Virus record (IMG/VR): IMGVR_UViG_2517287023_000001
Length of the DNA stretch: 64,000 bases
Strand: one strand, 5' to 3'
From: an uncultured virus (IMG/VR IMGVR_UViG_2517287023_000001)
Lineage: Duplodnaviria; Heunggongvirae; Uroviricota; Caudoviricetes
Positions 3,655 to 61,623 of this stretch are shown in pieces; within the stretch, counting starts at the first letter, position 1, and every line of letters begins with the position of its first letter. Below the pieces are notes generated by a model, which had not been told where the DNA came from, ran no database searches, and saw only the letters and a list, made by a program, of their open reading frames with translations. A program made the position numbers and the translations under genes.

Positions 3655-3752
3655 AAGAAGTCAACAAATAATGCTTGACCACTTCTATGTGTCTCTGTAG
3701 TGTGAGGTGAGCACGGGGAGCTGGAACCCCACGCACCGGATTCCCAGAGAGG
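3655..3752 (+). promoter_or_regulatory. Operator + promoter (TTGACC-17-TAGTGT) + AGCTGGAA leader hairpin + RBS
   Basis: GGGG-AGCTGGAA-CCCC at 3715-3730, then CAGAGAGGA. Confidence 0.8.
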
Positions 3753-3762
3753 ACGACAGTCG

Positions 3763-4008
3763 ATGGGCTGGACTTGCCCCAACCCCCTCCCGCCGTGGCA
3801 CACCCACGGCAACGGCGACCCCGACGAACCATGCGAGTGCCCCCGAGAGCCATGCGGGGCGGTAGACGCCCGCAACGTGCTCCCCAGTTGCGCAATCCAC
3901 CTGGACTCGATAAACGGCAACAACGTCCAGTGGGGGCAGTCCCACTGGGCAGGGTCCCCGGCCTGCACCAAGTGGCAGGCCCGTCTGACCGCCCGCGACG
4001 GAGCCTGA
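3763..4008 (+). CDS. Small Cys/His-rich hypothetical protein
   Basis: 81 aa directly after the cassette RBS. Confidence 0.6.
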   Translation: MGWTCPNPLPPWHTHGNGDPDEPCECPREPCGAVDARNVLPSCAIHLDSINGNNVQWGQSHWAGSPACTKWQARLTARDGA

Positions 4009-4077
4009 CACCTCCGGCCCCCGCCCCCTTCCCGGGCGGCCCGAACCCATCGGCCACCCGCCAAGCGAGAGGACACC

Positions 4078-4335
4078 ATGAGGCCCTCCCCGTACACCCA
4101 CGACGAAATTTGCGACCACGTCCTTGAGGCGTTGATACGTCACCGGGCCGAACAGCAAGCCACGCTCACCGCCCTTGAGAAGGACATAAGGCAGCTCGAC
4201 AACATGATCGACCGGACTCAAGCGTGGTTAACAGGGGACTGCCCGCTGTGCGGACAGAACCTAGCGGGGTGGGACTACCCGGCCCATCACGACGACGACG
4301 GCGTCGAGTGCGATTTCCGGTGGCTGGCACGCTGA
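4078..4335 (+). CDS. Hypothetical CPLC zinc-finger-like protein, paralog 1
   Basis: RBS GAGAGGA; near-identical ends to 4454-4819. Confidence 0.7.
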   Translation: MRPSPYTHDEICDHVLEALIRHRAEQQATLTALEKDIRQLDNMIDRTQAWLTGDCPLCGQNLAGWDYPAHHDDDGVECDFRWLAR

Positions 4336-4453
4336 CCCCGGCCGCCGGCCGGGCCACCCGGGACCCCGCTTCCCGTGTGGCCCGGCCGGCTCCTCCCCAA
4401 CATCCCCGGCCCCCGCCCCATTCCCGGGCGGGGGCCCCAACCGAGAGGACACC

Positions 4454-4819
4454 ATGACCGAGCCCCCCTACCCGTACACGCACGACGAAATTTCCGACCA
4501 CGTCCTGGAGGCGTTGATACGTCACCGCGCCGCCGTGGACCTTGCCCTGCATCAACAGGGAGCAACGCTCGCCGCCCTCGAAGCCGGCAAGACGGTAGAG
4601 GGATGGCCACGAGGCCAGCACGGCATCACAGTCCTACGGCAAACAGTCACGGCTTCCAGGCGCCGATCCGACCTACTCGACAACATGATCAACCGGACTA
4701 GGGCGTGGCTGACAGGATGCTGTCCGCTCTGCGACCAAGACCTAGCGCGGCTGGGCTACCCGCCCGATCACCAGGACCACACCGGCGTCGAGTGCGATTT
4801 CCGATGGCTGGCACGCTGA
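4454..4819 (+). CDS. Hypothetical CPLC zinc-finger-like protein, paralog 2
   Basis: YTHDEI..HVLEALIRHRA and GVECDFRWLAR shared with paralog 1. Confidence 0.7.
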   Translation: MTEPPYPYTHDEISDHVLEALIRHRAAVDLALHQQGATLAALEAGKTVEGWPRGQHGITVLRQTVTASRRRSDLLDNMINRTRAWLTGCCPLCDQDLARLGYPPDHQDHTGVECDFRWLAR

Positions 4820-4916
4820 CGCCCCGGCCGCCGGCCGGGCCACCCGGGACCCCGCTTCCCGTGTGGCCCGGCCGGCTCCGGTCGGCCCCTTCCCCCCCAA
4901 CCCGAAAGAAGGAACC

Positions 4917-5180
4917 GTGAATAAAGCCAATGACTGGAACCGTCCGTACTGGCAGGCGCTCGATGTCGACCTGCGTGCGGCGGCGGGCCGGATCGCCGCG
5001 TTTGACATCACGGCCGCTGAAGTGAAGGACGGGCCATCCTGGGCTCGCCGGGCGTGCGGCCGGGTAGGCGAGCTGCGCGTCACCGTCTCGACTCGAATCA
5101 CCGCGCCGGAGAATGCAGAGCTGGTTGCGCTGCGTGCCCGGGCCGAACTGGAGGCCGAGCGCACCGGGGGCACCCGATGA
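4917..5180 (+). CDS. Hypothetical protein
   Basis: GTG start after AGAAGGA RBS. Confidence 0.55.
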   Translation: MNKANDWNRPYWQALDVDLRAAAGRIAAFDITAAEVKDGPSWARRACGRVGELRVTVSTRITAPENAELVALRARAELEAERTGGTR

Positions 5181-5404
5181 GCATTCCAGACCCGTCAAAC
5201 GCCGGCACTGGCGCGGAATTGGTGTTTGCGTTGAGCCGCATCCAAAAGATCGCACTGCGCAAGCACCACGACGAGGACGTCGCCGACGGCATCTGCAGGT
5301 GGTGTGCCCCTGTTGCAGAAGACGGAACTACTTCCGGGCAGGGGTAGCCCTACGCAGCCCGCGTGTGAACACCGTACCGCACGCGAGCCCGAGGCCGCGC
5401 GTCG

Positions 5405-5755
5405 TTGCTATTCCGGGTCAACCGCGATCTTTTTCGAGTGATGGGGCACGGGGCCCGTCTCGGGACCCAGGCCCAGGAGAGGCAGGTCGACGTCGCAGAG
5501 GAGGCGGCGGTAGCCGGTCTGCTCGCGTCCGGCGTCAGCGTCATCGTGGACGACACGAACCTGCCACCGGAGACGCTGGACACGTGGCGGCAGATCGCCG
5601 ATGCGGCCGATGCACCCCTGGAGGTCGTTGACCTGCGCGACGTGGACGTGGAGGTGTGCATCGCGCGGGATGCCGACCGCCGTGCCAAGGGTGAGCCCGA
5701 TGTGGGTGCTGAGGTGATACGTGCCATGCACCAGTCACAGCGGCGCGTCCTGTGA
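5405..5755 (+). pseudogene. Truncated polynucleotide-kinase/AAA_33-like kinase domain
   Basis: RVNRD, VIVDDTNL, CIARDA.R and VI..M motifs of phage Pnk kinase domains; no upstream in-frame P-loop. Confidence 0.6.
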
Positions 5756-6469
5756 TCACCTCGGAGTCGATGGCGCGTGCGGTCAGTGAAGGCGCTGGTG
5801 TCCAACGCCGTTGCCGCCGGGATGAAGGAGACGGCGCACACACGCACGGGGGATGGGCCCTTGACATCACCCGGTCATGTGCTGCAAGGTTAGGCGTCTC
5901 CACGAGACGGCACGAGGAGCGCCACCGGCGCCCGAAGTGCTAGCTCATCACCCCTATCAGGGATCGAAACACTCGCGGAGACAGAGGCACGAAAACGCGT
6001 TCGCCGAGCTTGGTCTCAGCGGACGCGTTTTTGCTGTTCGGCGTGCGGCTTCGGGTGCCACAGGATGGTAAAATTTCGCTCGCCGCCTACTCTCCGGTGC
6101 TGCCGCCGTGGCATGGCACCGGCTCCATTGCGGCGATGCGGGTCGTGCGACCTGTGCCGATTTCGGATGTTCCTTCCCTGGCCCTTTTGGGCCAGGGCTC
6201 CGAACTTTGCCCCTTGTGACCATGATGCATGGGGCCTGCCGGTGCGTGGGGCTCCCATCTCGAACCGAGCGGATGGGCCACCCGCTACGGGTGGGCCCCT
6301 CTCGCGCTGTCTCTTTTGTTTGCCTGTGGTGTGTGGCGCGGCCCGGGTGACCTCGACTGGGTAGTCGACCCCGCAGAGCGCGAGCCGGATGACGACTGGA
6401 CCCCTTGAGTGACAGCCAGCGACAGCAGAAACCAGTCAAGCGTGACCGTGGAGCCGGAGGGAGGACACC

Positions 6470-6859
6470 ATGCCGCGCAGTACGTTGGACGCCGTGAACG
6501 CCACCTGGGTTAGCCGACTCGTCGGGGAGTTGAAGGGCTCCGTGCCCGGAATGGTGCTGCTGGCACTAAACCAGGCTGATGATGGCGCGCTGGCAATCGG
6601 GGTCTTACGTATCCCGGTCGACTCGCGCGCTGGCTGGCACGGACCCCGGATGCTGCTGTCCATCCTGGCTGCGGCAGATGCCCGGGGCCTGGACGTGGTG
6701 TGCACGCCGACGGGCTCGTACGGCTCGGACAGGCAGGCTCTGGTCCGCGCGCTGGGCCGGGTCGGATTCGTCTCTGTGCCTGAAGATCCGTCCGGCCACA
6801 CCATGCGGCGCCCCTCACCGGCCCCCACGGTCTTTGATCAGCGCCGGGACACCGCATGA
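6470..6859 (+). CDS. Hypothetical protein (possible GNAT-like fold)
   Basis: RBS GGAGGA; 129 aa; overlaps next gene. Confidence 0.5.
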   Translation: MPRSTLDAVNATWVSRLVGELKGSVPGMVLLALNQADDGALAIGVLRIPVDSRAGWHGPRMLLSILAAADARGLDVVCTPTGSYGSDRQALVRALGRVGFVSVPEDPSGHTMRRPSPAPTVFDQRRDTA

Positions 6860-7695
6860 GCGTAGAGGCGTGGTCGTTGGTCGGCGGTATGGCCGGCGCG
6901 GTAACAGGGGTCGTGGCGCTGGCCGTCAGCGTCTACTTCACGCGACGGGCCACGCGGGCGGCCGAGTCCGCGGCGGCGTCGGCCCAGCGGACCAGCCACA
7001 TCGAGGTCCAGCGGCGGCACGCCGAACTCACGCCACAGATCGCGCTGTCGGCAACGGCTGACGTGCACGGGCGGGTTTCCCTCACGCTCACGCTCGAGGG
7101 ACCGCCCGGCGTGCATCTGGATGAGGTCGCCGTCAGCATCAGTGATGATCAGCCAGAACCGCCACGCACGGGACACCACGCCGACAACACGGTTTGGGGG
7201 CCCTACCGGTTCGTCCCCGGTGCCAACCAGCGCCTTGGGGCGAGCGCCGAGGCGTTCGCGCTGCGTCGAGGCGAGCAGCGCACCCTCGAACTGGAACCGA
7301 GCGTGCCCCCCGCGTGGATCGACCCCAGCGCGTGGGCGGACCGGTATGGCGATACCCCGATCCGGCTCGACATCCGGTGCACACGCGATGACCACGAGCC
7401 GTGGGTCACCCTCATGCAGGTGGATCAGCCGCAGGCGGTATTCGACGTGGCCGGACGGCGGACACCACACGGGACGTTGCTGCTGACGCTCACCAACCGG
7501 GGTAACGCCCCGGCCCGTGACATCACCATCGAGGATGAGCAAGGCGGCGAACCGCCGCTTGACGGCGACATGCCTGAGGTCATCCAACCAGGAGACGTCC
7601 TGCCGCAAGTCGCGATCATGAGCGGCTATCAGTGGGTGAAGTTGACCTGGACCGACCCGCGCAGCAGCCGTCAGTCCCTGACCGTGCGCGGTTGA
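6856..7695 (+). CDS. Membrane-anchored hypothetical protein
   Basis: N-terminal TM helix; ATGA coupling. Confidence 0.7.
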   Translation: MSVEAWSLVGGMAGAVTGVVALAVSVYFTRRATRAAESAAASAQRTSHIEVQRRHAELTPQIALSATADVHGRVSLTLTLEGPPGVHLDEVAVSISDDQPEPPRTGHHADNTVWGPYRFVPGANQRLGASAEAFALRRGEQRTLELEPSVPPAWIDPSAWADRYGDTPIRLDIRCTRDDHEPWVTLMQVDQPQAVFDVAGRRTPHGTLLLTLTNRGNAPARDITIEDEQGGEPPLDGDMPEVIQPGDVLPQVAIMSGYQWVKLTWTDPRSSRQSLTVRG

Positions 7696-7937
7696 TTCCG
7701 CCCTGCTACTTGCCCGTTCCGGGGTGTCTGCGTCTCCCACCGGCGGCCGTGGTTCGCGCGCCACGCCTGGGCGGGGGTGAGCCAACCGACGCGGCCGGGT
7801 TGGGGGTAAGCGAGGGTGGGTTGAGTCATCCATGCCGGCGGGTTCGCCGGCGGCGGCGGCACCGGGCCCGGCACGGCCGGCGTCGGCGGGCCGGGGTCGA
7901 TCTTCCGGCGGAGCCTGAACCAGGGAATACGACGCAC
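7671..7937 (-). CDS. Small Pro-rich hypothetical protein
   Basis: GTG after GAGGAGG RBS. Confidence 0.5.
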   Translation of the reverse strand: MRRIPWFRLRRKIDPGPPTPAVPGPVPPPPANPPAWMTQPTLAYPQPGRVGWLTPAQAWRANHGRRWETQTPRNGQVAGRNQPRTVRD

Positions 7938-7989
7938 CGTGAACCTCCTCTAAACGGCCGGGGCGGCGCTGGCACGCGCCCCGGCCGTG

Positions 7990-8184
7990 CTATCGCCTCA
8001 GGCCGCCGATCACCACGGCGCCAACAACAATCACGAACACGAGGGCTGCTACCAGCTTCTGCTTAGTCGTCAGCTCGGCGGGAGGCCGCGGTACCACGGG
8101 GAACCCCTCGCCATCTGGCAAAGGAGGCGTGCCATGCGGGTCACGGTTGCGGTGCATACGGGGCCTGTTGTCGTCGGCCATCAC
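7990..8184 (-). CDS. Small membrane protein
   Basis: C-terminal TM segment; AAGGAGG RBS. Confidence 0.55.
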   Translation of the reverse strand: MMADDNRPRMHRNRDPHGTPPLPDGEGFPVVPRPPAELTTKQKLVAALVFVIVVGAVVIGGLRR

Positions 8185-8415
8185 AGCCTCCTTCAGTCCG
8201 TCTAGCCCAGCCTCAAGCCAGTGGGCCTTGCGGGGGCCAAGTAAACCGCCTCAGGCGGTGTGAGGAACCGGTGCCGATGGTGCCGATGGTGCAGCACGTC
8301 GAGAGACGTTCCGCCGGGGGTAGGCAAGCAAAAGGGGCCGATGCTGTCGGCGAATTCGGGAGTGCTTCGCGTTGGGCCGAGGTTCGTCACCGGGGGGGCC
8401 GGGACATGCGCGATG

Positions 8416-9795
8416 TCACGTCGCGGAATTCTGCCCATGGAGGAATTCGCGGGCGTCGGCGCAGAACCGCGCCACGTTGGCGTAGGCGCGGTGCGGGTAC
8501 AGCGCTTCGGCGAGGGTTCGCACGTGTTTGACGCAGCGCGCGGACGCCACCTGGTCAGACAGGGTGACCACGGCCTGGTCCCCCAAGGCGACGGCCTTGT
8601 CGAGGTCTGGCACCTCTTGGAGGGCGTAGGTCTGGCCGAGCAGCGCGTTGCGTAGCGCGCCCTCCCTGGTGTAGTCGCCGCCTTGCAGGCGTCGCGCCAT
8701 CCGCAGATGAGTGCGGGCGCCGGCCCAGTGCGACAGCTTGAGGTGGCTGTAGCCGGCCATAGCGTGCGCCTGGGCCTCGTCTACCCAGTAGGTCCAGTCC
8801 GGGTCGCCGTGGTCGGGGGCCGCGTTGTCGAGGGTGTCGAACGCCGCGTCGATCGCGCGGCGGGTGTCGGTGACGGACTCGGCGTTGGCGTGGGCCTCGG
8901 CCGCGCGCAGGTGCAGGATGGCCGTGACTTTGGGGCTAGCGGCGGGGTAGCCGGCGCGGGCGGTTTCGGCGAGCGTGACGGCCTGGCGTGTCTGGCCGAG
9001 GTCCTTGGCCTGGCAGGACATGCACCCCAGAATGATTGCGCCGAGGGCGCGGTCACCGGCGGCGTGTGCCGCGTGCATAGCCGCGGTCCAGTAGCGCTGC
9101 GCGTTCGGGTGGTGGCCCGAATCGAAGGCCAGCCATCCGGCTAGCCGCAGGATCTCTGCGGCGCTGGAGTGCAGCCGCCGGCCGACAGTATCGGTGTAGC
9201 TGCGCTGCGTCATCAAGTTGGTGACGGTGCTCAAGTGTTGGCGGACGAGTCCGAGGGTTTGCCCGCCCCCGAGGTGGTCGTCCATGCGGCGGAGGTCTGC
9301 GGTGATCGCGTCGATATGGTCCACCACGTCGGTGGTGAGCTGGTAACCGCGCGTGGCTATCGGTGAGCCGGCGGGGCCTGCGATCAGCCACTCGTGCCCG
9401 GAGGCGGTCATGGCAGAGCCCAGGAGCGTCACGAACGTCCGCCGTCGCATGATCCCACCCTCGTTGACGGTCTGGACCGCGTGCAATGCCCCGGCCACGG
9501 TCCAGGGCAGGACGAGTCCCGTGGAGGCCGGAACCGCCTCACCGCTGTCGTCAGGCCAGCCCAGGTCAGACGGGGTGATCGTGCGGCCCAGCAGATCTGA
9601 CAGCAGGTGCGCAGCCAGGGCCGACCAGGGACGGCCGGGCACCTGGCCACAACGCCACTTGTAGGGCGTTTTGAGGTGCAGCCGTTTGTGGAAGCCGTGA
9701 TGTTCGGCGGAATCGTTGAGGCGGCGGGCATACGCCTCGGGCGTTAGCCCGGCCTCGGTCAGCAGCCGGTCAAACTCCGCGCCGTTGCCACTCAT
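8416..9795 (-). CDS. NsdA-like transcriptional regulator (N-terminal HTH, helical/TPR-like C-terminus)
   Basis: MRRRTFV, LRRMDDHLGGG and LAGWLAFDSG..AQRYW..A motifs typical of this actinomycete family. Confidence 0.8.
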   Translation of the reverse strand: MSGNGAEFDRLLTEAGLTPEAYARRLNDSAEHHGFHKRLHLKTPYKWRCGQVPGRPWSALAAHLLSDLLGRTITPSDLGWPDDSGEAVPASTGLVLPWTVAGALHAVQTVNEGGIMRRRTFVTLLGSAMTASGHEWLIAGPAGSPIATRGYQLTTDVVDHIDAITADLRRMDDHLGGGQTLGLVRQHLSTVTNLMTQRSYTDTVGRRLHSSAAEILRLAGWLAFDSGHHPNAQRYWTAAMHAAHAAGDRALGAIILGCMSCQAKDLGQTRQAVTLAETARAGYPAASPKVTAILHLRAAEAHANAESVTDTRRAIDAAFDTLDNAAPDHGDPDWTYWVDEAQAHAMAGYSHLKLSHWAGARTHLRMARRLQGGDYTREGALRNALLGQTYALQEVPDLDKAVALGDQAVVTLSDQVASARCVKHVRTLAEALYPHRAYANVARFCADAREFLHGQNSAT

Positions 9796-9881
9796 CGCGA
9801 CCCCTCCGAGGTGTCCTGAGTGGCACAGTAGCGGTGACAGGTAACTCCGTCACTACGCCCTACCGCAGATCGAGTGTGGCG

Positions 9882-10163
9882 CTACTCCGGTGGACCTTGA
9901 AGGTACGCGCGTAGCGCACGGCGGGTCAGTTCACTGGGAGAGATGCCGGCGTCGCTGGCCGCCGTCACAAGCGCCTCTTGGAAGTCGGGGTCGAGCCAGA
10001 CATAGAAGACATCCGCTGGCACCGACCCGACCGCGGGGCGACCCCGCCGACGAGGCCGCAACTGTGTCGTGTCGTACCCCTGCTCGGCCTCCGACGCAAG
10101 GCGTTCGATGAGCTCATCGGTGAGTTCATCGCCACCGGAGGTGCCCCTGCATGACTTGCTCAT
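9882..10163 (-). CDS. CopG/ribbon-helix-helix protein (orphan antitoxin-like)
   Basis: EAEQGYD..RRGRP..V.LDP....AL...A...G.S.SELTRRALRAYL. Confidence 0.75.
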   Translation of the reverse strand: MSKSCRGTSGGDELTDELIERLASEAEQGYDTTQLRPRRRGRPAVGSVPADVFYVWLDPDFQEALVTAASDAGISPSELTRRALRAYLQGPPE

Positions 10164-13219: not shown

Positions 13220-13323
13220 ACCAAGGTGGTGGGTCGCGTGACTTGACGCGGCCCACCACACCGAATTCGCCGACGTGCAGGGGCAACGCGGCGTACCATG
13301 CCGCCAAAGGGGCAAAGGGAGAC

Positions 13324-24013: not shown

Positions 24014-24226
24014 GCGTCAACCTCTCCGAGTCCTGTAAAAGGTGGTAAATGTTCCTTGTTGGTTTCTGATGGCTGGGTTAGATTGTAGGGGATGGATTTT
24101 GAGGGGAGCTGGAACCCCTTAGCCAGTCCGAGAGGAAAAGCCGCTAGGGCATCTCGGCCCGGCGTGGGCCCCCTTCATGGGGCTCGGTGGCGGGCCGGAC
24201 GCCCTGCGAACGGAGAGGAGGTTGGT

Positions 24227-24406: not shown

Positions 24407-24624
24407 TAGGGCCCGGTCACGGCCGGTGGGTCACCCCCCGCTCCCACGCGAGGAGCGGGGGGTGACTGCTGCCTACCGAGCTTCTGAAGTCGAGTAGGAC
24501 GGACCCCACAAACACGGCCACCCACAAACCGCAAAAGAAGCCTTGACAACTTCTGCTGTCCCGGTTAGTGTAGTGGGTGTTCGGGGCGGGGAGCTGGACC
24601 CCGCCCCCCACCTGAGGGGGAACA

Positions 24625-24840: not shown

Positions 24841-25053
24841 TCTACACGGTTGCGCCCCCGCTCTGCGCACGCAGGGTGGGGGCGCAACCGTGTGCGCGGC
24901 GTTTCCCCCGGGCCGCTGGATCGCCACCTAAAGAACCCAAGTAAAAGGATCGAAATCCTACTTGCCAACTTCTGTTGTCCCGATTATGGTGGTTGGTGTG
25001 AGGCCGGGGGAGCTGGAACCCCCGACCCGCCCCCCCCCGAAACGAGGTCGAAC

Positions 25054-25410: not shown

Positions 25411-25720
25411 GCCTCACCGCATGAGAGGGGCGCTCTGCCGCCCCTCTCATGCGAAGACCCCGCTGGGCCACGCCGGCGCTGGCACGGGCACCCGGAATGG
25501 AATATCGGCTAAGCCCCCGGTCACGGCCGGTCAGTCACCCCCGCTCCTCGCGAGGAGCGGGGGTGACTGCTGTCTACGGAGCTTGCGGGGCCGGGACACC
25601 CCCAAACCCGACCACTTAAAAACATCTAAGGAAGCCTTGATAACTTCTGCTGTCCCGGTTAGTGTAGTGGGTGTCAAGGCGAGGTAGCTGGAACCTCGCC
25701 CCTCAGAGAGGGCCGCGCCC

Positions 25721-26820: not shown

Positions 26821-26988
26821 GCGCTCTCCTCTCGGGGTGAAGCGGGATTCCAGCTCTCCCGCCTTACATCCATCACACTAACCGGACCATTAAAAGTTAT
26901 CAAGGCTCCTTGTAAACTTTCTAATGGTCTGGTTAAGTGGTGGGTGTGGGCGGAGTTGGAACCGCTCGCACACCGAGAGGAGGGCCCC

Positions 26989-28685: not shown

Positions 28686-28872
28686 CCTGGGGATGCCGTG
28701 CGGCCCGCGCCCATGTACGGGGGCGCGGGCCGCATTTTGCCTGTTTTACGGGACACGAAAAGCTATACAGTAAACCTTGTGTCTTTCTATTGGATTCGAT
28801 AGTGTGGTGTCTATCGAAGGGGGCGGTGGAGCTGGAACCACCACTCCCGCAATCCGAGAGGGAGGCGACGCA

Positions 28873-33123: not shown

Positions 33124-33282
33124 TCCTGGCGGCCGTGCCTCGGTTACGGGGTTGGTTTTGGCGAGGGTTCCAGCCTTCACCACTTGACCACACCAACCCA
33201 ACAGAAGGTGTCAAGCAATACTTGGGACTTTTTGATGGCCTGGTTTGTGTCTGTCCGGGCCTGCCCGAGACGGGCCCCGGTT

Positions 33283-46934: not shown

Positions 46935-47284
46935 GGGTCGCCCTCTCGGATTGAGGATTGCGGTGGAGTTCCAGCACCCCACGCGCCACCCACATTAGCG
47001 GCCCAGTAGAAGTTATGCAACTAGCTTTGTTGGTTTTTCGCTGATACCGGTACTGGCCTCGGTTGCATCCTCCTTTCAGGGGAGGTTAGTTAACTGATTA
47101 ACTAACCTCCTCTGTGTGGACGCTTCATCCCGTCGAGTGCCCTACCAGTCACCCTCAGTAGAGGGTCTGGTAGCGGAGCAAGCGCCATGACAACCTGAAT
47201 ACGGGGGCACAACGCCCCTCCCTCTGACATCAGAGGGAGGGGCGTTAGCTCTGACCCTTACAGCCCCAGAGTGAGGAGCCTGCA

Positions 47285-52171: not shown

Positions 52172-52413
52172 AAAATCCCTTTCAGTCTGGGTCTTGTGGG
52201 ACGCGCAGCACACGGGGCGCGTTAGACAGTCCGCTCGCAGCGTTGCTACCGTGGGCGTGCGACATCCCGCGAGGGGTGTTGCGAGGCGAGGCAGTTACCG
52301 ACCTCCACCTACGTGGCAGTTGGGGCGTGCTCGTCCTCTCGGAAGATCCGCCCTCCGTGCACCGTTCTCGGTTTTCCAGCCTTTGTCCGGGTGCGTCGGG
52401 GGGCGGGTTTCGT

Positions 52414-53670: not shown

Positions 53671-54227
53671 GAAATGTCCTCGCTCTCTCGGGTGGTGAGA
53701 GGGGCGCAGCAGCCCGCCCAACGTTGCAGGGTGACTGATAGTCCCCGGCTTCACGTGCGGGGTGCGTCCTCTCGGGGCATCTCGAGCCGGCGAACCCTCC
53801 GGACTTCCAGCTCCCCGGGGCCCTGCCCGACTCAAGTCCCTCAAGGATAACGCGGACACTAAAAATAGTCAAACTATGCTTGATGACTTACCGTGGGGTT
53901 CAGGTGGAGGAGGCACCACCTGCGGCGTGCCTGCAACACGAAACAGCGCCCCCGGGTCACCGGGGGCGCTGTTTCGTGTGTGCTGTCTCCAGGGTGAGGC
54001 GCATTCCGATGCAGAGGCGGGATAGACCCCCCTCGCCTCCGCGTGGCCGCCCACCCCCGGTGCCTGACCGGAAAGGATGGGGCAGCGCATCGCCGCGAAT
54101 GCGCCAAGGAGTCCTCAAACGATCAAGAGCCCAGCCTGACGGCTGGGCTCTTGATGTGTCCCTGACGGCTGGGCTCTTGATGCGTCCCCCTGTTGCCCTC
54201 ATGAGCACCGCTAGAGCGGGGAATCTT

Positions 54228-54542: not shown

Positions 54543-54739
54543 GCGCGCCTACCTCTCGGTTGAGACCCGGGGTTCCAGCTCCCCGGGCCGGGCTCATGGC
54601 CCCGCCCTCACGCCTTTCCGGTGTTTCCAACGGGGCCTGGGTCAGTGGCAGTCATCCCGCGATGACGCCTCTGCACCCACACGGTAACGAGCCCCAAAGT
54701 AAGCGGCAAGGGCTACTTCATGATTTTTGTATGGCCTAG

Positions 54740-56123: not shown

Positions 56124-56780
56124 TCATGGCCGTCCCGCCTCGTCCCGGCGGCAGCAGCCACAGCAGAACCCTTCCTCGGCGTGGTCGCATTGCCCGCCCG
56201 GGTCGGCGGGTTCGGCGCATCGGCCGTGGGCGCAGGGCTGCACCCACAGATCAGCGCAGTAGGTGTGCCGTTCGGGTGTGAGGCACGGCTGCACTGGCAG
56301 CCCGTCGGCGGGAGCCCAGCACCCGGGGCGGCAGACCGCAGCGTGCCGCCACCCGTCGGGCGTCTCGGTGAGCAGCCCGCGACACTGCCCGCAGCGCCGT
56401 AGGGGCTCGGCCATCACGAGGTGGCCGGACAGCAGCCCGTCGAGGACCCCCATCAGCGCCCGTGCCTCAGTGCGGTGTTCGGATGCGCCGTCGGCGGCCA
56501 CGGCCGCGGTCCCGTCGCGAACCTTGGCGAGCGCGTCACCGCTGCCGGTCCAGGTGCGTGCGTCTCGCAGTGTGCTCCACATCAGCGGGACCGGTTGGCC
56601 GGTGGGGATCACCATCACCTCCCACAGCGTGTTCACATCCTCGACGCGGTGATAAGCCCACACCCCGTCAGTGGAGACCGCGCCGATTCGGACGCGTCGG
56701 CCGCGCATGTCCCGCGCGTAGACGACATCCCGTAGCGGGGTGAGGCGCGGCGGAGCCGGCCGGACGGCAGTGGGCCTCAT
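56124..56780 (-). CDS. Hypothetical protein with Cys-rich tail
   Basis: ATGA-coupled to upstream gene. Confidence 0.55.
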   Translation of the reverse strand: MRPTAVRPAPPRLTPLRDVVYARDMRGRRVRIGAVSTDGVWAYHRVEDVNTLWEVMVIPTGQPVPLMWSTLRDARTWTGSGDALAKVRDGTAAVAADGASEHRTEARALMGVLDGLLSGHLVMAEPLRRCGQCRGLLTETPDGWRHAAVCRPGCWAPADGLPVQPCLTPERHTYCADLWVQPCAHGRCAEPADPGGQCDHAEEGFCCGCCRRDEAGRP

Positions 56781-57082
56781 GCGGCCCACCGCGTGGGCTT
56801 GGCAGTGGTGGTCCGCCGGAGGGCGTCAGCGATGACACCGCCGAGCCGCAGCCCCAGATACGTGCAACCAAACCCGGCGAACCGCTGGGACTGCCCCGAC
56901 GTGTAGACCGCGATGACCACGACATCACCGCAGGGCGGTACCTCGACCAGCCACCTCCGCCGGAGCGCGTAGACCGTGCTCGTGGCGGTGACATGGATAA
57001 GGGTGGCCCGGGAACCGGGTAGATCCTCGGCGAACGCCACGCGCCACGCGGCGGCGTCCTCATAGCAGGCGAGAAAGATCAT
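56777..57082 (-). CDS. Hypothetical protein
   Basis: Hairpin + CCGAGAGGA RBS upstream. Confidence 0.55.
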   Translation of the reverse strand: MIFLACYEDAAAWRVAFAEDLPGSRATLIHVTATSTVYALRRRWLVEVPPCGDVVVIAVYTSGQSQRFAGFGCTYLGLRLGGVIADALRRTTTAKPTRWAA

Positions 57083-57797
57083 CGTGTGCTGTCCTCTCGG
57101 TTTGCCCGGGTGAGGGGTTCCAGCTCCCCGCCCCGGGAGGGCGTGTACGGGGGAGGTCGCCGAGGGCGCGGGGGATTGCCCCTCTACCGCGCCCCCGGCC
57201 TCTCCCCTCGGGTTTGGCGGGCGGATCGACAGCCCGCGCTGTATCCACACGGGCTGTCGATCCCCCCGGCAGCAGTCCTGCTGGGCCGCTACCGGGGGCC
57301 CTCGACCCGCCACCACCCACACTAGGGGGCCAGCTAGAAGGTGTCAATGAGTCTTTCAAAGTTTATGTGTGGCTTGCTATCGTGGGGTCTCCGTCGTGCG
57401 TGGAGTCTCACGCGCCGCTTTTAAGGGGTGGGCGCTAAGCGGTCGGGGCGCTCCGGGGGGCGCGCGGGAGGCTTTCCGTTTACGGTTCGTCGTCAACGCG
57501 AAGCGGCTCCCGCAAACGCAGCTTAGAGCCCAACAGAAATTGCCAAACAGTGCTGGACAACTTCTATGCGGTCTAGATAGTCTCGGAGTTGCGGAGAGGA
57601 GCTGGAACCTCGCCGCAAACCACCGCGTTAAGTCGGCGCGGTTTCGTCGTACGTCCGTGGAGGAATGGAGCCATGCTCGCCCCTAGTGCGTCCCCTGTCC
57701 ATTCATCGCTCACGCGCATCAAACCGCGCGGGTGCACCCGTCGTCCGGGCGTGAGCCAAGGGAGGCCGCGTCGGCGGCCGTCCACGAAAGGACGATC

Positions 57798-58751
57798 GTG
57801 ACACTGACAACCATCTCGAAGTCGAAGAAGCTCGAACTGTTGGGGCTGCAATTCGACAAAGACAAGCTTCGGATCGGCCCATACGCGGTGCGTGACCTTC
57901 AGGACGCGCACACGAGCCGCCCCGGCGACAAGCGCATCGTCGCCGCCAACTTCATCGCAGTGACTATCGACGTATCGGCTGGCCAAGACGGGTCACGAAC
58001 CGTGACCTGGCTGTCCTGCAACCGATGCAACAGGGTGTTTCCGTCGACCAGTGCGGTCGAGGATCACCTGTCCCGGGAGCACGCCAACGGCGAGCGCATC
58101 GCCAGCGCCGGGGATATCGTGGCGTCCACCCCCCACCCCCCAGAGGAGCCACCCACCGTGGGCGACAAACAGACCTCGTTTGAGGCACGAGCGCTAAAGA
58201 CCCGCGAGGCGTATGACGCGTTGGTCGAAGACGAACGGAAGCAGGGGCGGCAGCTCGGCATTGTTAAGGCGGCCGAGCTGTTGCAGATTCAGACGTCGAC
58301 GCTGTCCCGTCGGCTCGAAGCGACCGGCCGGACACGGCAGTCGCGCAACCGCGACAGCCCGCAGAAGACCCGCGCGGCATACCTCAAACTGCGTGACCAG
58401 GAGCCGGGCATCAGTCAGGTCGCGGCGGCTAGGCGTCTGGGCCTGAACCCGGCGACCTTGCGACGGCGGCTACAGGAAACCGACGTGGAGCCGCAGCTTC
58501 CTGCACAGGTGTCGGTGGCACGTGCCGTTGATCCGCAGCCTCACGCACATTCGGTAGCGAGCGCCGTGGACCCGGAGCAGGAACGGAGGATCGACACCTA
58601 TTTGGAGTTGGTGGAGGAGTTGTCCTCGTCCCGTGACCGGTGGAAGGAGCGTGCCGAAAGAGCCGAGCGTGAGCGCGATGCGGCTAGGAAAAAGCTGGAC
58701 GCCGTGCGCGCGGCCGTTCAGGCAACGCTGCCGGTCATTGAGCAGGACTGA
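57798..58751 (+). CDS. C2H2-like zinc finger + tandem HTH + coiled-coil protein
   Basis: CNRCNRVF.....VEDHLSREH; two HTH repeats; C-terminal coiled coil. Confidence 0.7.
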   Translation: MTLTTISKSKKLELLGLQFDKDKLRIGPYAVRDLQDAHTSRPGDKRIVAANFIAVTIDVSAGQDGSRTVTWLSCNRCNRVFPSTSAVEDHLSREHANGERIASAGDIVASTPHPPEEPPTVGDKQTSFEARALKTREAYDALVEDERKQGRQLGIVKAAELLQIQTSTLSRRLEATGRTRQSRNRDSPQKTRAAYLKLRDQEPGISQVAAARRLGLNPATLRRRLQETDVEPQLPAQVSVARAVDPQPHAHSVASAVDPEQERRIDTYLELVEELSSSRDRWKERAERAERERDAARKKLDAVRAAVQATLPVIEQD

Positions 58752-58992
58752 CCTGCCAACGCCACAACTCATGGGAGCGTAGAAGGGTGACGGGATTTGA
58801 TCCGTTGGGCTGGCTCGCGCCCCCAGGGCCCCCGTCACCCCCGGCCATGCTCCGGCTCGACAGCGCTGCACGACCAACTTGCAGGCCACCAGAAACCCGA
58901 GAAACACCCCTTGTGTGATTCTAGCTGTCCCGCTAGTGTTTGGGTTGTGGTTGGGGAGCTGGACCCCGACCCGAACGAGAGGGGAGTAGCGA

Positions 58993-59703
58993 ATGGACTT
59001 CGCCGAGCTGCAAGCGGAACACAATGCGGCTATAGACGCTGGCAAGCCCATGGCTGTTATCGCTGAGATCTCGCGGAAGATCCGGGACTACATCATGTCG
59101 GGAAAGCCGGTTTCGGCTGAGAAGCCGAGAACCGGGAAGCAGCACCCCCCGGAGGGGAAGGCCGAGCGGCCGACCGACCAAATAGCCGGTCTCCCTCCGG
59201 CCACGGATGACCAGCGCGCCTATGTGCACGACCTCATCCATGGATTGGCGCCGCGCCTCTCGGTCGACCAGGAGGAGATCGACGGCACTATCGCCGACAC
59301 CCATTCGCCCGCGCGCCGGGCGATGGAACTACATCTGGCCATCGAGGAATTTCTGACCATTGCGGACGAGTGTCGGCAGGCTCGCCCATTGGGCGACGAG
59401 TCCCCCCGCCTCCCCGACGGGTGGTATGTGCTGGAGGGTGGCGTGTATCGCATCGAGCGGCGCACGGTTGCAGGTAATACCGGTATTGCCGTTCGGTCCG
59501 CGGGGCCAGACGGTACACCGGGGCCAGCAGTCGCCTACCGGGCGAAGAAGAAGGAAATCGTGGAAGCCCTGTCGAAGGACCCGGTCACCGCTATGCGGGC
59601 GTACGGGCTGCGTACCGGGCGGTGCGGGCTGGACAACACCCTGTTGGAGGGGGAAACCGCTCGCCACTATGGGATTCACGCCGCTTGCCTGTGTAGTGCC
59701 TGA
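58993..59703 (+). CDS. DUF6011-like domain protein
   Basis: YG.RTGRC....LL......YGI...C C-terminus; cassette-driven. Confidence 0.65.
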   Translation: MDFAELQAEHNAAIDAGKPMAVIAEISRKIRDYIMSGKPVSAEKPRTGKQHPPEGKAERPTDQIAGLPPATDDQRAYVHDLIHGLAPRLSVDQEEIDGTIADTHSPARRAMELHLAIEEFLTIADECRQARPLGDESPRLPDGWYVLEGGVYRIERRTVAGNTGIAVRSAGPDGTPGPAVAYRAKKKEIVEALSKDPVTAMRAYGLRTGRCGLDNTLLEGETARHYGIHAACLCSA

Positions 59704-59749
59704 CACCGGGTGAGGGCCCGCCGCTACGGCGGGCCCTCACCCGCCGGCC

Positions 59750-60360
59750 CCGCAGCAACCGAATGCATCCAAAGAGGAAGTCTCGGGCGGGGAGTGTCCG
59801 CGCGACTACTCTTAGCGTATGGTCACGCGGTAGATCGCATCGGACTTCATCGTTGGGCAATCCGGGGGATGGTTGGTGTGTTCTACGGTTGGGTATTGTC
59901 TTCGCGAGCGGCCTTAACCTACCCTCACCGGCCGCGCGTCGTTACTGGCCGGCATCGTCGGCGTTTTACGCACACAACAGGTCTAGCTTGTGCCCGCAGG
60001 GTCTTACCCTCTGTCGACGTAGTGGTTCGCCCCATCCACGGTGTGTCGTTGGCGCTTCCCCCCGTGGCGCTACGGCGGCCGAGGTGTTAGGGCTGTTCCC
60101 CGTCGGCAGACCGGAGGACGGGGGCCGGGCCGCCTCAGGCGACACGGCCCCCGTCGGGCCCTCTCCCACGCGACCGCGCGACTGGTCCCGCGTGGGGTGG
60201 AGGGAACGGCGACGGTGCGAGAGTGCCTGGAGGGCGTGGCAAGCCCCGCGCAGCCCTCAACAGCTCTCGCGCCGTCGCCGCCCGGTTGCCCTCAGTGTGA
60301 AGTCATTCGGTGTGCGCGATGTGGTGAGTCGGGTCCGCCCCGCAAGTGGTTTCCGGGGTG
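59750..60360. ncRNA. Candidate large structured ncRNA (~600 nt; minus strand slightly favoured)
   Basis: No convincing ORF; many nested hairpins; end-to-end pairing 59758-59765 / 60304-60311. Confidence 0.5.
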
Positions 60361-60734
60361 GGGCGTAGGGATCAATAAATCTACGAACGCAAGTTTACAA
60401 GTCGGGTGCCAGACGTTACCCCGGGCCGCCCCCCGGATGCCACCGGTAAGGGTCCGGTAAGGAGTGCGCTCTACGGCCGAACCCGCGTGAGCGAATCGTT
60501 GTATACCTCTGCGCAAGAGCGCACCTTATGTGGGTTTTTGGGCCTAGCCGGATGGTCGGTCAACGAGGTTCGGGTGAGCGGGCCCCATCGCTAAGGGTGA
60601 CCCTCCCCAAAACCAGCCCACCAGAAACGCCTAAATATCCCTTGAATCTTTCTATCTGGCTCGGTAATGTGGGTCCTGTTGCAGCGAGGGGAGCTGACCC
60701 CCCCGCCCTAACCCCCAAGGAGGGCGAGCAGGCC

Positions 60735-61472
60735 ATGAAGTTGAGTCGCGAAGACTACCTGCGCAAGGTCCGCGCTCTTTTAGCCCAGGCACAGGACCCG
60801 GCGACCCCGCCGGAAGCGGCGGAAAACATGACCACGAAGGCAATGGAACTGATGGCACGACACGGCATCGAAGTGGCTCTGGCCGCAGATGCCGGGGGGT
60901 CGGAAGCAGACCCCATCATCGACCACAAGATGCCGCTAAAGGGCCAGTACCTGACGGACATGATAGTGATTCTGGTGAGTGTCGCGGAACCGCTGGGAAT
61001 CAAGCACGTCCAGATCCGAGGCCGAGTGCGGACCGAATGCGTAATGCACCTGTTCGGACCGGCCAGCAGCATCGAACGGGCTGACATGCTCTTCACCTCC
61101 CTCATGGTCCAGTGTGTAGGGGCGATGGCAGGAAGCCAGCCCGAGGGCTTGAAAGGGCCCGACTTGAGAAAGTGGAAAAGCGACTTCATCTTCTACTTCG
61201 CGGCGGCCGTGTATGGGCGGCTGGAGGCGATCGAGAAGCAGGCAACTGACTCGGTTGCGGGCACCGGAACGGATCTTGTTCCGGTGCTAAGTCGACGTTC
61301 CGCCGCAGTGGACGAGCGGGTGAAGGCGATGTACCCGCGATTGAAGCGCTCCCGCACTTTGGTGCGTGGGCGCTCCGCCCACGGCAAGGAGGCGGGCCGA
61401 AGGGCCGGGCAGCGCGCGGACATTGGCCAGCGCACAACCTCGGACGGGAGTCGCAACGCGCTCGGTCACTAG
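60735..61472 (+). CDS. DUF2786 domain protein
   Basis: KVRALLAQA......EA....KA.ELMARHGI. Confidence 0.85.
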   Translation: MKLSREDYLRKVRALLAQAQDPATPPEAAENMTTKAMELMARHGIEVALAADAGGSEADPIIDHKMPLKGQYLTDMIVILVSVAEPLGIKHVQIRGRVRTECVMHLFGPASSIERADMLFTSLMVQCVGAMAGSQPEGLKGPDLRKWKSDFIFYFAAAVYGRLEAIEKQATDSVAGTGTDLVPVLSRRSAAVDERVKAMYPRLKRSRTLVRGRSAHGKEAGRRAGQRADIGQRTTSDGSRNALGH

Positions 61473-61623
61473 CACAGTGCCCCCGGGGCGGTAGCCGCCC
61501 CGGGGGGCACTGTGAGGCGACACCAGCAATATCGGAAACTGTCAGTAGCGGTACGGCCACCATCCGGGCGGGAGCTGGAACCCACCGGACACGGGCCCCA
61601 CCACTTGCCGAGAGGACCCGAAG

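What the first reader, a model, noticed from the sequence alone, without database searches (positions are those of the whole stretch)
3715..61590. Recurrent 5' leader hairpin with conserved (A)GCTGGAA loop and covarying stem (18 copies)
Seen: loops start at 3719, 24107, 24592, 25011, 25685, 26954, 28830, 57600, 58957, 60692 and 61573 (+), and at 26848, 33168, 33536, 46969, 53805, 54573 and 57118 (-). Stems differ but stay paired, including G-U pairs: GGCGAGG/CCTCGCC, GGTGG/CCACC, GCGGGA/TCCCGC, GTGAGG/CCTCAC, CCCGGGG/CCCCGGG, GGGCGG/CCGCTC. The hairpin is oriented with transcription, lies after the promoter and usually precedes a CCGAGAGG RBS. Inference: a cis-acting RNA element read by a phage RNA-binding protein, an antiterminator or an antisense RNA, coordinating many early or accessory genes.
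Basis: partly seen in the sequence, partly recalled or inferred. Interest (0 to 1): 0.82.

Follow-up and report, generated by a model that had tools for sequence, protein, structure and literature searches.

The report
Loop-tagged leader hairpins of an actinophage
A 78-kb phage carried beside an actinomycete chromosome puts the same small hairpin, with a free stem and a fixed AGCUGGAA loop, in front of 18 of its small accessory genes, most likely as a shared RNA control tag whose reader is still unknown.

Summary
All 18 listed sites exist. Fourteen carry exact GCTGGAA and four carry one- or two-base variants. All 18 fold into a hairpin that shows the motif in its terminal loop, and the stems covary (79.7% of cells paired vs 63.2% in shuffles, 0 of 500 reach it).

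The window is the first 64 kb of a 78.3-kb extrachromosomal siphovirus-type phage (C2). The motif is private to this phage. It is not enriched in the host chromosome or in 400 genomes of the host family, and has no Rfam match. The only relative found that carries it is one IMG/VR provirus fragment with 6 orthologous copies.

The hairpin is one part of a cassette:
- a host-type promoter;
- the hairpin;
- a phage-specific extended Shine-Dalgarno, CCGAGAGG(A);
- a small gene of unknown function;
- often a large terminator-like hairpin.

Most likely it is an RNA operator read at its loop by a phage factor that acts on translation or mRNA fate (about 45%). No result here shows that the RNA form is the active one, and no reader was found.

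It is a new variant of known phage regulatory cassettes (PeSL, SAS/ESAS). Earlier notes of this scan describe similar loop-tagged leader hairpins, with other loops, on other phage DNA.

The parts
3711..3734 (+). tag hairpin, loop AGCTGGAA; promoter TTGACC-17-TAGTGT from 3675; AGAGAGG at 3746; ATG 3763 (81 aa)
   Evidence: z +0.30
24099..24122 (+). tag hairpin, loop AGCTGGAA; CGAGAGG at 24129 with no start codon nearby; likely start GTG 24227
24583..24607 (+). tag hairpin, 9 bp, loop AGCTGGA(C); promoter from 24543; ATG 24625 (71 aa)
   Evidence: z -2.54
25002..25027 (+). tag hairpin, loop AGCTGGAA; promoter from 24962; ATG 25054 (118 aa)
25678..25700 (+). tag hairpin GGCGAGGT/ACCTCGCC; promoter from 25637; AGAGAGG at 25705; ATG 25721 (124 aa)
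   Evidence: z -2.70
26837..26867 (-). tag hairpin, loop GAGCTGGAA; promoter from 26903 (divergent partner of 26910+); CGAGAGG at 26834; ATG 26820 (168 aa)
26942..26974 (+). tag hairpin, 12 bp, variant loop AGTTGGAA; CGAGAGG at 26974; ATG 26989 (115 aa)
   Evidence: z -4.31
28819..28848 (+). tag hairpin GGTGG/CCACC with an outer helix; promoter from 28777; CGAGAGG at 28855; ATG 28873 (56 aa, CxxC pairs)
33159..33182 (-). weakest copy: GGCTGGAA, imperfect stem; ATG 33123 (82 aa)
   Evidence: CM 23.6 bits
33526..33552 (-). tag hairpin GTGAGG/CCTCAC, loop GGCTGGAA; promoter TTGACA-16-TATGGT from 33583; CGAGAGG at 33521; ATG 33507 (74 aa)
46960..46986 (-). tag hairpin, loop (T)GCTGGA(A); promoter from 47020; CGAGAGG at 46948; ATG 46934 (207 aa)
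   Evidence: z -3.11
53792..53823 (-). tag hairpin (poor stem); promoter TTGACT-17-TATCCT upstream; CGAGAGG at 53774; start GTG 53754 or ATG about 53670
   Evidence: z +0.30
54564..54589 (-). tag hairpin CCCGGGG/CCCCGGG; lies 91 nt after a promoter-like TTGCCG-17-TACCGT (54709-54681) but 15 nt before CGAGAGG (54558); ATG 54542 (104 aa)
57105..57137 (-). tag hairpin; about 200 nt after the promoter at 57347-, 19 nt before CGAGAGG (57099); ATG 57082 (101 aa)
   Evidence: orthologue in L016 at 338-
57589..57618 (+). tag hairpin, 10 bp with an A.G mismatch; degenerate promoter; no CGAGAGG; next good SD/ATG at 57673, HTH gene from about 57732-57798
   Evidence: z -3.30
58945..58974 (+). tag hairpin, loop AGCTGGA(C); promoter from 58911; CGAGAGG at 58976; ATG 58993 (236 aa, phrog_636)
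60684..60706 (+). degenerate copy, loop AGCTGACC (orthologue in the relative keeps GCTGGA); promoter from 60642; ATG 60735 (245 aa, DUF2786)
61563..61589 (+). tag hairpin with no clear promoter, after the terminator-like hairpin of the upstream gene; CGAGAGG at 61609; ATG 61624 (67 aa)
52335..52380 (-). stemless relic: GCTGGAA (52374-52380) plus CCGAGAGGA 26 nt downstream, with no stem and no nearby start
24543..24580 (+). example of the promoter family cTTGAcAaCTTCT-N-GgTTAGTGT followed by a G/T-rich GTGGGTGT segment. About 20 members; some have other leader hairpins instead (3161+, 33222+, 37928+, 57347-)

Best explanation
The hairpin is a cis-acting tag in the mRNA leader of about 18 small accessory or early gene cassettes of this phage.

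Each cassette is built from:
- a host-type (TTGACA-17-TAGTGT) promoter;
- a hairpin whose stem is free to vary but whose loop is fixed at (A)GCUGGA(A);
- 12-29 nt further on, a phage-specific extended Shine-Dalgarno, CCGAGAGG(A);
- the start codon and a small ORF of unknown function;
- often a large terminator-like hairpin.

Proposed mechanism (inferred). A trans-acting factor, most likely encoded by the phage, recognises the exposed loop on the stem scaffold. With or without the neighbouring CCGAGAGGA, it then sets translation initiation or the lifetime of all tagged messages together. This could be shut-off or boosting of the early/accessory class, by a translational repressor or activator, or by a site-specific endonuclease.

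Shown here: the structure, the conservation pattern, the placement and the phage specificity.

Inferred: that the RNA is the active form, that a protein reads it, and the direction of the effect.
For: (1) A fixed loop on a variable, compensated stem is the signature of a structure read at its loop. G17, T19 and G20 are invariant, and C18, G21 and A22 are >= 90% conserved in 24 copies. The helix covaries (0 of 500 shuffles reach the paired fraction or the covariation score, and all slid registers are lower).

(2) All 18 of 18 copies fold with the motif in the terminal loop. In whole leaders, 13 of 15 keep that hairpin in the minimum-energy fold.

(3) All 18 of 18 are co-oriented with the downstream ORF, on both strands of the phage.

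(4) The constant partner of the hairpin is the extended SD:
- [C/A]GAGAGG follows in 13 of 18.
- In three long leaders (54573, 57118, 61574) the hairpin sits 15-29 nt from that element and 90-200 nt from the promoter, or has none.
- In two copies (24108, 53805) hairpin and CGAGAGG stay together near the promoter although no start codon follows closely.

(5) CCGAGAGG is 8 times denser in C2 (25.5 per 100 kb) than in the chromosome (3.05). Its first two C's cannot pair with the host 16S 3' end ...CCUCCUUUCU. So it is more than a ribosome site.

(6) The motif is private to the phage:
- no excess in the chromosome;
- none in 400 genomes of the host family;
- none in two Micromonospora prophages that share a tail-region protein at 50-53%.
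This points to a phage-encoded reader.

(7) Six orthologous leaders in a relative at 65-80% nucleotide identity keep promoter boxes, loop and CGAGAGG, while stems and spacers change.

(8) DNA sites of classical type are built the opposite way: conserved palindromic arms, as in GGAGGTTAGTTAACTGATTAACTAACCTCC, present 3 times in the same phage.
Against: There is no direct evidence for the RNA form.
- Pairing gives no strand signal: 15 G-U vs 12 A-C cells, and the sense strand is more stable in only 11 of 24 copies.
- RNAalifold found no consensus helix on the ungapped alignment.
- Two of 18 hairpins are no more stable than shuffles.

No known RNA-binding domain turned up in the ORFs scanned. Pfam was run on 60 + 17 + 39 ORFs and PHROGs on 39 + 38. 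Six-frame searches of the whole genome found no CsrA or ProQ.

Only two genomes carry the element, so the covariation is mostly among paralogues. The shuffle control does not correct for their relatedness.

The distance from hairpin to SD varies (12-29 nt), which does not fit simple steric occlusion. One copy (57601) has no CGAGAGG at all.
Confidence: 0.45

Rival explanations
1. The hairpin is a structure-only 5' stabiliser or processing boundary. A stem-loop at or near the 5' end protects the message from 5'-end-dependent RNases. The loop looks conserved only because the cassettes are recent copies or undergo gene conversion.
For: In 12 of 18 copies the stem starts about 8-14 nt after the -10 box, that is, at or within a few bases of the expected transcript start. 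Untagged promoters of the same family carry other leader hairpins (3161+, 33222+, 37928+, 57347-). The cassettes at 24543 and 25637 share a near-identical 40-nt promoter, which shows recent copying.
Against: The stems of those two near-identical cassettes differ completely while the loop is kept. Across 24 copies the loop is the most conserved part and the stem the least. That is the reverse of neutral decay after duplication. In three leaders the hairpin lies 90-200 nt from the promoter, next to the SD.
Confidence: 0.15
2. The element works at the DNA level. It would be an asymmetric operator of the stoperator type (GAGCTGGAAC) bound by the prophage repressor to silence about 18 strong promoters, or a hairpin or cruciform recognised by a recombination or replication protein.
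For: The distribution matches what is described for L5/Bxb1 stoperators: 24-34 asymmetric 13-bp sites, in intergenic regions, in one orientation relative to transcription (PMC3029335, passages read). C2 is maintained beside the chromosome, has ParA and must keep many host-type promoters quiet. The structure can form equally well on either strand.
Against: A duplex-DNA site needs no flanking complementarity, yet the arms covary. The L5 consensus itself is not the repeated element here. With up to 3 mismatches it gives 62 matches vs 35 expected, and only two of them sit at cassettes (25666, 26862). The clear DNA-type repeats of this phage have conserved arms.
Confidence: 0.12
3. The hairpin is a boxB-like signal on the nascent RNA that loads a phage antiterminator onto RNA polymerase.
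For: It lies just after promoters in 15 of 18 copies. It is a small hairpin with a fixed loop. Terminator-like hairpins are common in these regions.
Against: Most tagged genes have their own promoter, and 10 of 17 gene ends examined are followed by a large terminator-like hairpin, so there is little left to read through. In the promoter-distal copies the hairpin keeps close to the SD. The loop is 8 nt, not a GNRA-like pentaloop. No arginine-rich N-like protein was found: the one Arg-rich 42-aa ORF (57673-57801) is poorly conserved in the relative.
Confidence: 0.08
4. The cassette is mainly a recombination linker of the PeSL type. Conserved promoter/stem-loop/SD segments give short homologies that shuffle accessory genes, and the hairpin rides along or marks the crossover.
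For: The architecture matches PeSL cassettes: a sigma70-like promoter, a Gn-loop-Cn stem-loop, an SD, and ORFans in variable regions (PMC2839356 and PMC4122927, passages read). All 18 copies lie outside the structural module, and the CM found none in C2 64-78 kb. The regions that differ between C2 and the relative are the cassette-rich ones.
Against: Homology-driven shuffling does not explain compensated stems under a fixed loop. This role is also compatible with, and would add to, a regulatory one.
Confidence: 0.1

Closest known systems
PeSL (promoter-early stem-loop) cassettes of T4-type phages (Arbiol et al. 2010, PMC2839356; Comeau et al. 2014, PMC4122927; passages read)
   Same: Repeated intergenic cassettes with a strong host-type promoter, a G-run/C-run stem-loop and an SD in front of small ORFans, concentrated in the variable, non-structural parts of the genome.
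   Different: In PeSLs the stem-loop mostly overlaps or precedes the promoter boxes, is described as a terminator for upstream transcription, and is defined by its stem (Gn-loop-Cn). Here it lies downstream of the -10 in the leader and also occurs far from any promoter. It is defined by its loop with a free, compensated stem, and separate large hairpins follow the genes. The host and phage type also differ: an actinomycete siphovirus, not a T4-type myovirus.
Start-Associated Sequences and Extended SAS of Cluster K mycobacteriophages (Pope et al. 2011, PMC3203893; abstract and passages read)
   Same: A phage-specific asymmetric motif containing the SD a few bases before the start codons of 11-19 non-structural genes. 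About half are preceded by an inverted repeat. It is absent from the host genome and its function is unknown. CCGAGAGG(A) plus the hairpin repeats this layout.
   Different: The sequence is unrelated: GGGATAGGAGCCC with up to 2 mismatches gives 1 match vs 2.15 expected. In ESAS the 17-bp arms are conserved, the spacer varies and departures are not compensated, so those authors saw little support for an mRNA hairpin. Here the arms vary with compensation and the loop is fixed.
Stoperators of Cluster A mycobacteriophages (L5 gp71, Bxb1 gp69; as summarised in PMC3029335, passages read)
   Same: Tens of asymmetric sites in intergenic regions, all in one orientation relative to transcription.
   Different: Stoperators are 13-bp duplex-DNA sites without flanking complementarity. 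Here the conserved core is embedded in a covarying inverted repeat.
Protein-read leader hairpins of phages: lambda nut boxB/N, T4 gene 43 operator (5-bp stem, 8-nt loop beside the SD), RNA-phage coat-protein operators; T4 RegA/RegB control of early messages (all recalled, not looked up here)
   Same: A small hairpin read at its loop, next to a ribosome site or just after a promoter. RegA and RegB act on many early messages at once.
   Different: Those hairpins occur once or twice per genome. RegA and RegB sites are not hairpin-defined. No homologue of any of these proteins was recognised here.
CsrA/Rsm-regulated leaders (recalled)
   Same: One GGA in a hairpin loop and a second GGA in the SD, 10-60 nt apart.
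   Different: No CsrA gene in the genome or the phage. The loop does not fit A-N-GGA.

Membership tests
PeSL cassettes | Strong sigma70-like early promoter in the repeated intergenic motif | tested here: met
   TTGACA-like / 16-19 nt / TAGTGT-like upstream of 15 of 18 hairpins. By sequence only; promoter activity was not tested.
PeSL cassettes | Stem-loop that overlaps or adjoins the promoter and terminates upstream transcription | tested here: not met
   The tag hairpin lies 8-14 nt downstream of the -10, inside its own transcript, and has no U tract. Separate 12-24-bp hairpins follow 10 of 17 gene ends examined.
PeSL cassettes | Association with ORFans in variable regions | tested here: met
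   All 18 copies are outside the structural module. Of the 18 downstream ORFs, only 2 have a Pfam domain above cut-off and 3 a PHROG of unknown function.
PeSL cassettes | Recombination between cassettes (indels, mini-circles) | not testable with these tools
   Only one partial relative is available.
SAS/ESAS of Cluster K phages | 13-bp GGGATAGGAGCCC a few bases before start codons | tested here: not met
   1 match at up to 2 mismatches vs 2.15 expected, and not at a gene start. The analogous local motif is CCGAGAGG(A).
SAS/ESAS of Cluster K phages | 17-bp inverted repeats conserved in sequence, variable spacer, departures not compensated | tested here: not met
   Arms vary and are compensated; the loop is conserved.
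lambda-type nut (boxA + boxB) sites | 5-bp stem with a GNRA-like pentaloop, a linear boxA nearby, one site per operon before terminators, and an N-like arginine-rich protein | tested here: not met
   The loop is 6-9 nt, mostly 8. There are 18 sites, mostly one per gene. No conserved Arg-rich small protein was found. boxA was not searched for.
CsrA/Rsm target leaders | A CsrA-family protein in the host or the element | tested here: not met
   PF02599 six-frame search of the whole genome: 0 matches; controls ring in 3 of 14 genomes.
Stoperator-type DNA operators | Asymmetric duplex site, oriented with transcription, intergenic, bound by the repressor | tested here: inconclusive
   Orientation and placement fit. 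The covarying arms are not expected for such a site. Binding is not testable here.
Any Rfam family | Match to a curated covariance model | tested here: not met
   0 matches at gathering score. Of 5 matches at E <= 1, none lies on a hairpin.

The most novel reading that the evidence does not exclude
Together, the hairpin and the CCGAGAGGA box are a phage-private 'address label' on mRNA. One still unrecognised phage protein family reads the loop to tell the phage's own early or accessory messages from host messages, and switches the whole class on or off after transcription.

Earlier notes of this scan describe the same design on unrelated phage DNA, with other loop words (AACGGA, AGCGGU, A-UGG, AAAGAC). 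This would then be one instance of a widespread, undescribed layer of phage gene control in which each lineage has its own loop code and reader.

A bolder sub-reading, with low odds, concerns the host ribosome. The loop plus 3' arm (GCUGGAACC(U/C)C) resembles the host 16S 3' end (GCUGGAUCACCUCC), and the G-rich 5' arm pairs with that arm like an SD. The hairpin might therefore mimic the SD:anti-SD helix for a ribosome-associated factor.
Probability: 0.3. Interest if true: 0.8.

Novelty: new variant of a known kind. Interest (0 to 1): 0.6.

Why it matters
If the loop is read by a phage factor, this phage has a post-transcriptional regulon of about 18 genes defined by a 6-8-nt loop word. That would be directly testable with reporters and an RNA pull-down.

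It would also give a mechanism to a class of conserved phage leader and start-site motifs (SAS/ESAS, PeSL) whose function has stayed open since 2010-2011.

Practically, the cassette marks promoters, leaders and true start codons in an unannotated actinophage. It also offers compact expression parts for high-GC actinomycetes: promoter, leader, SD and terminator.

Tried and rejected
Searches for relatives.
- Phage collection, nucleotide, near and distant, with 24000-29000: no match.
- Plasmid collection, distant, with 56700-62000: no match.
- Viral contigs with GAGCTGGAACC-N4-30-CCGAGAGG: 5 loci, of which only the 2 in one provirus fragment were real.
- Viral contigs with GGAGCTGGAACC-N3-32-GAGAGG: 17 loci, of which only 3 were real, all in that same fragment. 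Two look-alikes (L155, L159) have no stem and no CGAGAGG excess in their records.
None of the 80 fetched loci had a second hairpin or a promoter plus SD.
- Protein-based locus searches. The DUF2786 protein found two viral contigs without the motif and nothing in genomes. The 635-aa tail-region protein found two Micromonospora prophages without the motif.

The covariance model R1 found no further copy. The best non-training hit scored 21.4 bits, in an orthologous coding site.

RNA evidence: no RNA holder was listed for this DNA.

Strand tests by G-U vs A-C cells and by sense vs antisense energy gave no signal.

RNAalifold gave no consensus pairs.

Similarity of the post-promoter G/T-rich segment to the L5 stoperator is limited to two cassettes.

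CsrA and ProQ/FinO are absent.

rRNA mimicry. GCUGGA is shared with the 16S 3' end, and GCUGGAA occurs once in 23S without a hairpin context. This is too little to build on.

The Arg-rich 42-aa ORF at 57673 is probably not a gene.

Literature. Searches for Micromonospora phage leader motifs and for the phiC31 repressor sites (conserved inverted repeats) found nothing usable in the held library. What I say about phiC31-type sites, boxB, gp43, RegA/RegB and CsrA is recalled.

Not used: structure prediction, complex prediction and the protein atlas, because no candidate reader stood out.

Full report
WHAT THE DNA IS

The window is the first 64 kb of contig C2. C2 is 78,320 bp at 67.3% GC and lies beside a 5.02-Mb chromosome at 70.0% GC.

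C2 is a siphovirus-type phage genome kept outside the chromosome. It encodes:
- a portal and minor capsid protein 2 (129-3125, minus strand);
- large and small terminase (20323-22616, minus);
- a capsid protein, tail terminator and Gp37-like tail protein in 64-78 kb;
- an amidase lysin (61882-62706, minus);
- ParA, Prim-Pol, a Cas4-like exonuclease with a RecT-like protein, and several HTH regulators.

The closest phages in the public phage collection are Streptomyces phages at 43-45% portal identity.

A 27.4-kb IMG/VR provirus fragment (G401; loci L016 and L017) matches C2 at 65-90% nucleotide identity from 56.8 kb, across the contig ends, to 6.8 kb. The ends of C2 as assembled are therefore arbitrary: the molecule is circular or permuted.

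Two Micromonospora prophages share a 635-aa tail-region protein at 50-53% identity. By inference, the host belongs to the same family as Micromonospora.

THE OBSERVATION

GCTGGAA occurs 20 times in the window against 6.35 +/- 2.31 expected. Fourteen carry exact GCTGGAA. The other four carry AGCTGGAC (twice), AGTTGGAA and AGCTGACC.

In 33-nt windows, 18 of 18 fold so that the motif fills the terminal loop. The loop is 8 nt in 11 copies and 6, 7 or 9 nt in the rest. Stems have 6-12 pairs. Against dinucleotide shuffles, 16 of 18 have negative z, 10 of 18 have z <= -2, and two (3720, 53805) have z = +0.30.

An ungapped alignment of the 18 copies plus 6 copies from G401 shows:
- G17, T19 and G20 invariant;
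- C18, G21 and A22 at least 90% conserved;
- the two closing G-C pairs largely kept, and everything else free.

For the 8-bp helix:
- 79.7% of cells pair, against 63.2% when the 3' letters are shuffled (0 of 500 shuffles reach this);
- 30 cells are changed on both sides, against 13.0;
- the covariation score is 0.460 against 0.187 (0 of 500);
- every slid register is worse.

The shuffle control does not correct for the relatedness of paralogues. Even so, cassettes with near-identical promoters (24543 and 25637) have entirely different stems under the same loop. This argues against simple inheritance.

Results that go against, or do not help, an RNA reading:
- RNAalifold predicts no consensus pair on this alignment.
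- G-U cells (15) are hardly more frequent than A-C cells (12).
- The sense strand is the more stable one in only 11 of 24 copies.

The strand assignment rests on orientation alone.

SPECIFICITY

With a strict rule (loop NGCTGGAA closed by at least 4 pairs), C2 has 9 hairpins against 0.12 expected from 60 permuted cores. The chromosome has 20 against a mean of 14.3 (maximum 69).

GGAGCTGGAACC occurs 9 times in this genome, and its backwards-read control occurs 0 times. In 400 other genomes of the same family it occurs 0-8 times, scattered. The one exception is an unrelated tandem repeat in one genome. That tally includes four unpublished genomes, G106, G138, G213 and G217, with 0-2 matches each.

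Rfam has no match at gathering scores, and none on a hairpin at E <= 1.

A covariance model built from the 24 copies recovers them and nothing else above 21.4 bits. It was run over the window, the rest of C2, G401 and the two Micromonospora prophage loci. No copy lies in the structural module.

Pattern scans of viral and metagenome collections found the element only in G401.

ANATOMY

The hairpin is one part of a cassette.

Upstream, 15 of 18 copies have a promoter of one family: cTTGAcAaCTTCT, then GgTTAGTGT after a 16-19-nt spacer. A G/T-rich GTGGGTGT segment follows. The stem begins about 8-14 nt after the -10 box.

Downstream, 13 of 18 have [C/A]GAGAGG 12-29 nt after the loop, and a start codon 5-10 nt further on.

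CCGAGAGG is 8 times denser in C2 than in the chromosome (25.5 vs 3.05 per 100 kb). GAGAGGA can pair with the host 16S 3' end UCCUUUC with one wobble. The conserved CC in front of it cannot (16S end read). So this box is more than a ribosome site.

Behind the genes, 10 of 17 gene ends examined carry a 12-24-bp GC-rich hairpin. Many units therefore look self-contained.

How the parts travel together is the informative point:
- Twelve cassettes are compact (promoter, hairpin, box and start within about 75 nt).
- In three (54573, 57118, 61574) the hairpin lies 15-29 nt before the box but 90-200 nt from the nearest promoter-like site, or has none.
- In three (24108, 53805, 57601) the hairpin stays near the promoter while the likely start is far away. 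In two of these the CGAGAGG box stays with the hairpin although no start codon follows closely.
- A stemless relic (GCTGGAA plus CCGAGAGGA, 52335-52380 minus) also exists.

The steady partner of the hairpin is thus the box, not the transcript start.

The downstream genes encode 42-245-aa proteins. Two have a Pfam domain above cut-off (DUF2786; HTH in the gene after 57601) and three match a PHROG of unknown function. The rest match nothing.

In the six orthologous leaders of G401, promoter boxes, loop and box are kept while stems and spacers change. The degenerate window copy 60692 (AGCTGACC) has GCTGGA in the relative.

MECHANISM

A fixed loop on a free, compensated stem is what a reader of an exposed loop would select for. 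Absence from the host genome points to a phage-encoded reader. Coupling to an SD-containing box points to translation initiation or mRNA fate.

I therefore favour an RNA operator shared by about 18 accessory or early messages (confidence 0.45). Whether it represses, activates or directs cleavage is open.

The rivals are:
- A structure-only 5' stabiliser (0.15). Twelve hairpins sit at the expected 5' end, but the conserved loop and the SD-proximal copies speak against it.
- A DNA-level operator of the stoperator kind, or a recombination site (0.12). Placement and orientation fit the description of L5/Bxb1 stoperators in PMC3029335, but covarying arms are not expected. The L5 consensus itself is not the repeated element. 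This phage's clear DNA-type repeats have conserved arms.
- boxB-like antitermination (0.08). The units are largely one gene each with their own promoter, and no N-like protein was found.
- A PeSL-type recombination linker (0.10, not exclusive).

No RNA-binding domain was recognised in the ORFs scanned, and CsrA and ProQ are absent from the genome.

COMPARISON WITH WHAT IS KNOWN

The cassette resembles PeSL cassettes of T4-type phages (PMC2839356, PMC4122927). It also resembles the SAS/ESAS motifs of Cluster K mycobacteriophages (PMC3203893). I read passages of these papers, not their whole texts or supplements.

It differs from PeSL in where the stem-loop lies and in being defined by its loop. 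It differs from ESAS in having variable, compensated arms and a fixed loop; the ESAS authors found conserved arms without compensation. It is not a sequence member of either family.

My statements on boxB/N, the T4 gene 43 operator, RegA/RegB, CsrA targets and phiC31 repressor sites are recalled. The literature searches did not bring up papers on them or on Micromonospora phage leader motifs. That covers only the held open-access library.

EARLIER NOTES OF THIS SCAN

Unchecked notes describe leader hairpins with free stems and fixed loops in other, unrelated phage DNA (e1-5807805, e1-5665043, e1-5971643, e1-5587123), each with a different loop word. I did not test them. They suggest the design is recurrent and do not bear on the evidence for this case.

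VERDICT

This is a real, statistically solid, phage-private structured element. It forms a new variant of known phage regulatory cassettes. Its RNA-level function and its reader are inferred, not shown. Interest 0.6.

Noticed in passing
window 44863-44899, 47073-47109, 48007-48043: AT-rich perfect palindrome GGAGGTTAGTTAACTGATTAACTAACCTCC in three copies around the ParA gene (45156-45986, minus). It looks like operator or partition sites with conserved arms (family D12).
   Followed up: no
window 44141, 46188, 46212, 48456: Four copies of a 30-nt G-rich repeat, GGGGTGAYGTACCCGCACAGGGGTGGGGTG, iteron-like, near ParA and Prim-Pol (family D5).
   Followed up: no
window 24425-24465, 24846-24895, 25420-25455, 26135-26190, 53330-53375, 59710-59745, 61475-61515 and others: Very strong GC-rich hairpins (12-24 bp) without U tracts directly after 10 of 17 gene ends examined in the cassette regions. 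They are probably terminators of these one-gene units.
   Followed up: partly
whole C2; window examples 4066, 4442, 37999, 45138: CCGAGAGG(A) is 8 times denser in the phage than in the chromosome, and it also precedes start codons of genes that have no tag hairpin.
   Followed up: partly
chromosome C1 501222 (16S 3' end) versus the hairpin loops: The loop hexamer GCUGGA is identical to the 16S rRNA bases just 5' of the anti-SD (GCGGCUGGAUCACCUCCUUUCU). The hairpin's 3' arm is C-rich (127 of 192 bases) and its 5' arm G-rich (134 of 192). This may be chance.
   Followed up: partly
window 3200-20300: About 17 kb of accessory genes separates the portal (1356-3125) from the terminase genes (20323-22616). 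This is unusual for a packaging module. The block includes HTH_31+DUF5753, a 459-aa regulator (phrog_10886, E 9e-173), DUF3800 and a BTG-family hit.
   Followed up: no
window 4084-4400 versus 4466-4880; 14804-15043 versus 15176-15415: Tandem duplications of about 480 nt (two paralogous small genes, one 58-nt stretch 100% identical) and of 240 nt (95%).
   Followed up: no
window 23165-24013 (minus): A 282-aa protein matching the PHROG 'phosphoadenosine phosphosulfate reductase' (E 1e-51), next to the terminase block.
   Followed up: no
C2 ends; L016/L017: The relative G401 is contiguous across the ends of C2 (77420-78320 joins 1-3603), so C2 is circular or circularly permuted.
   Followed up: partly
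window 26903-/26910+, 47020-/47027+, 3667-/3675+: Back-to-back divergent promoter pairs of the same family whose -35 regions abut.
   Followed up: no
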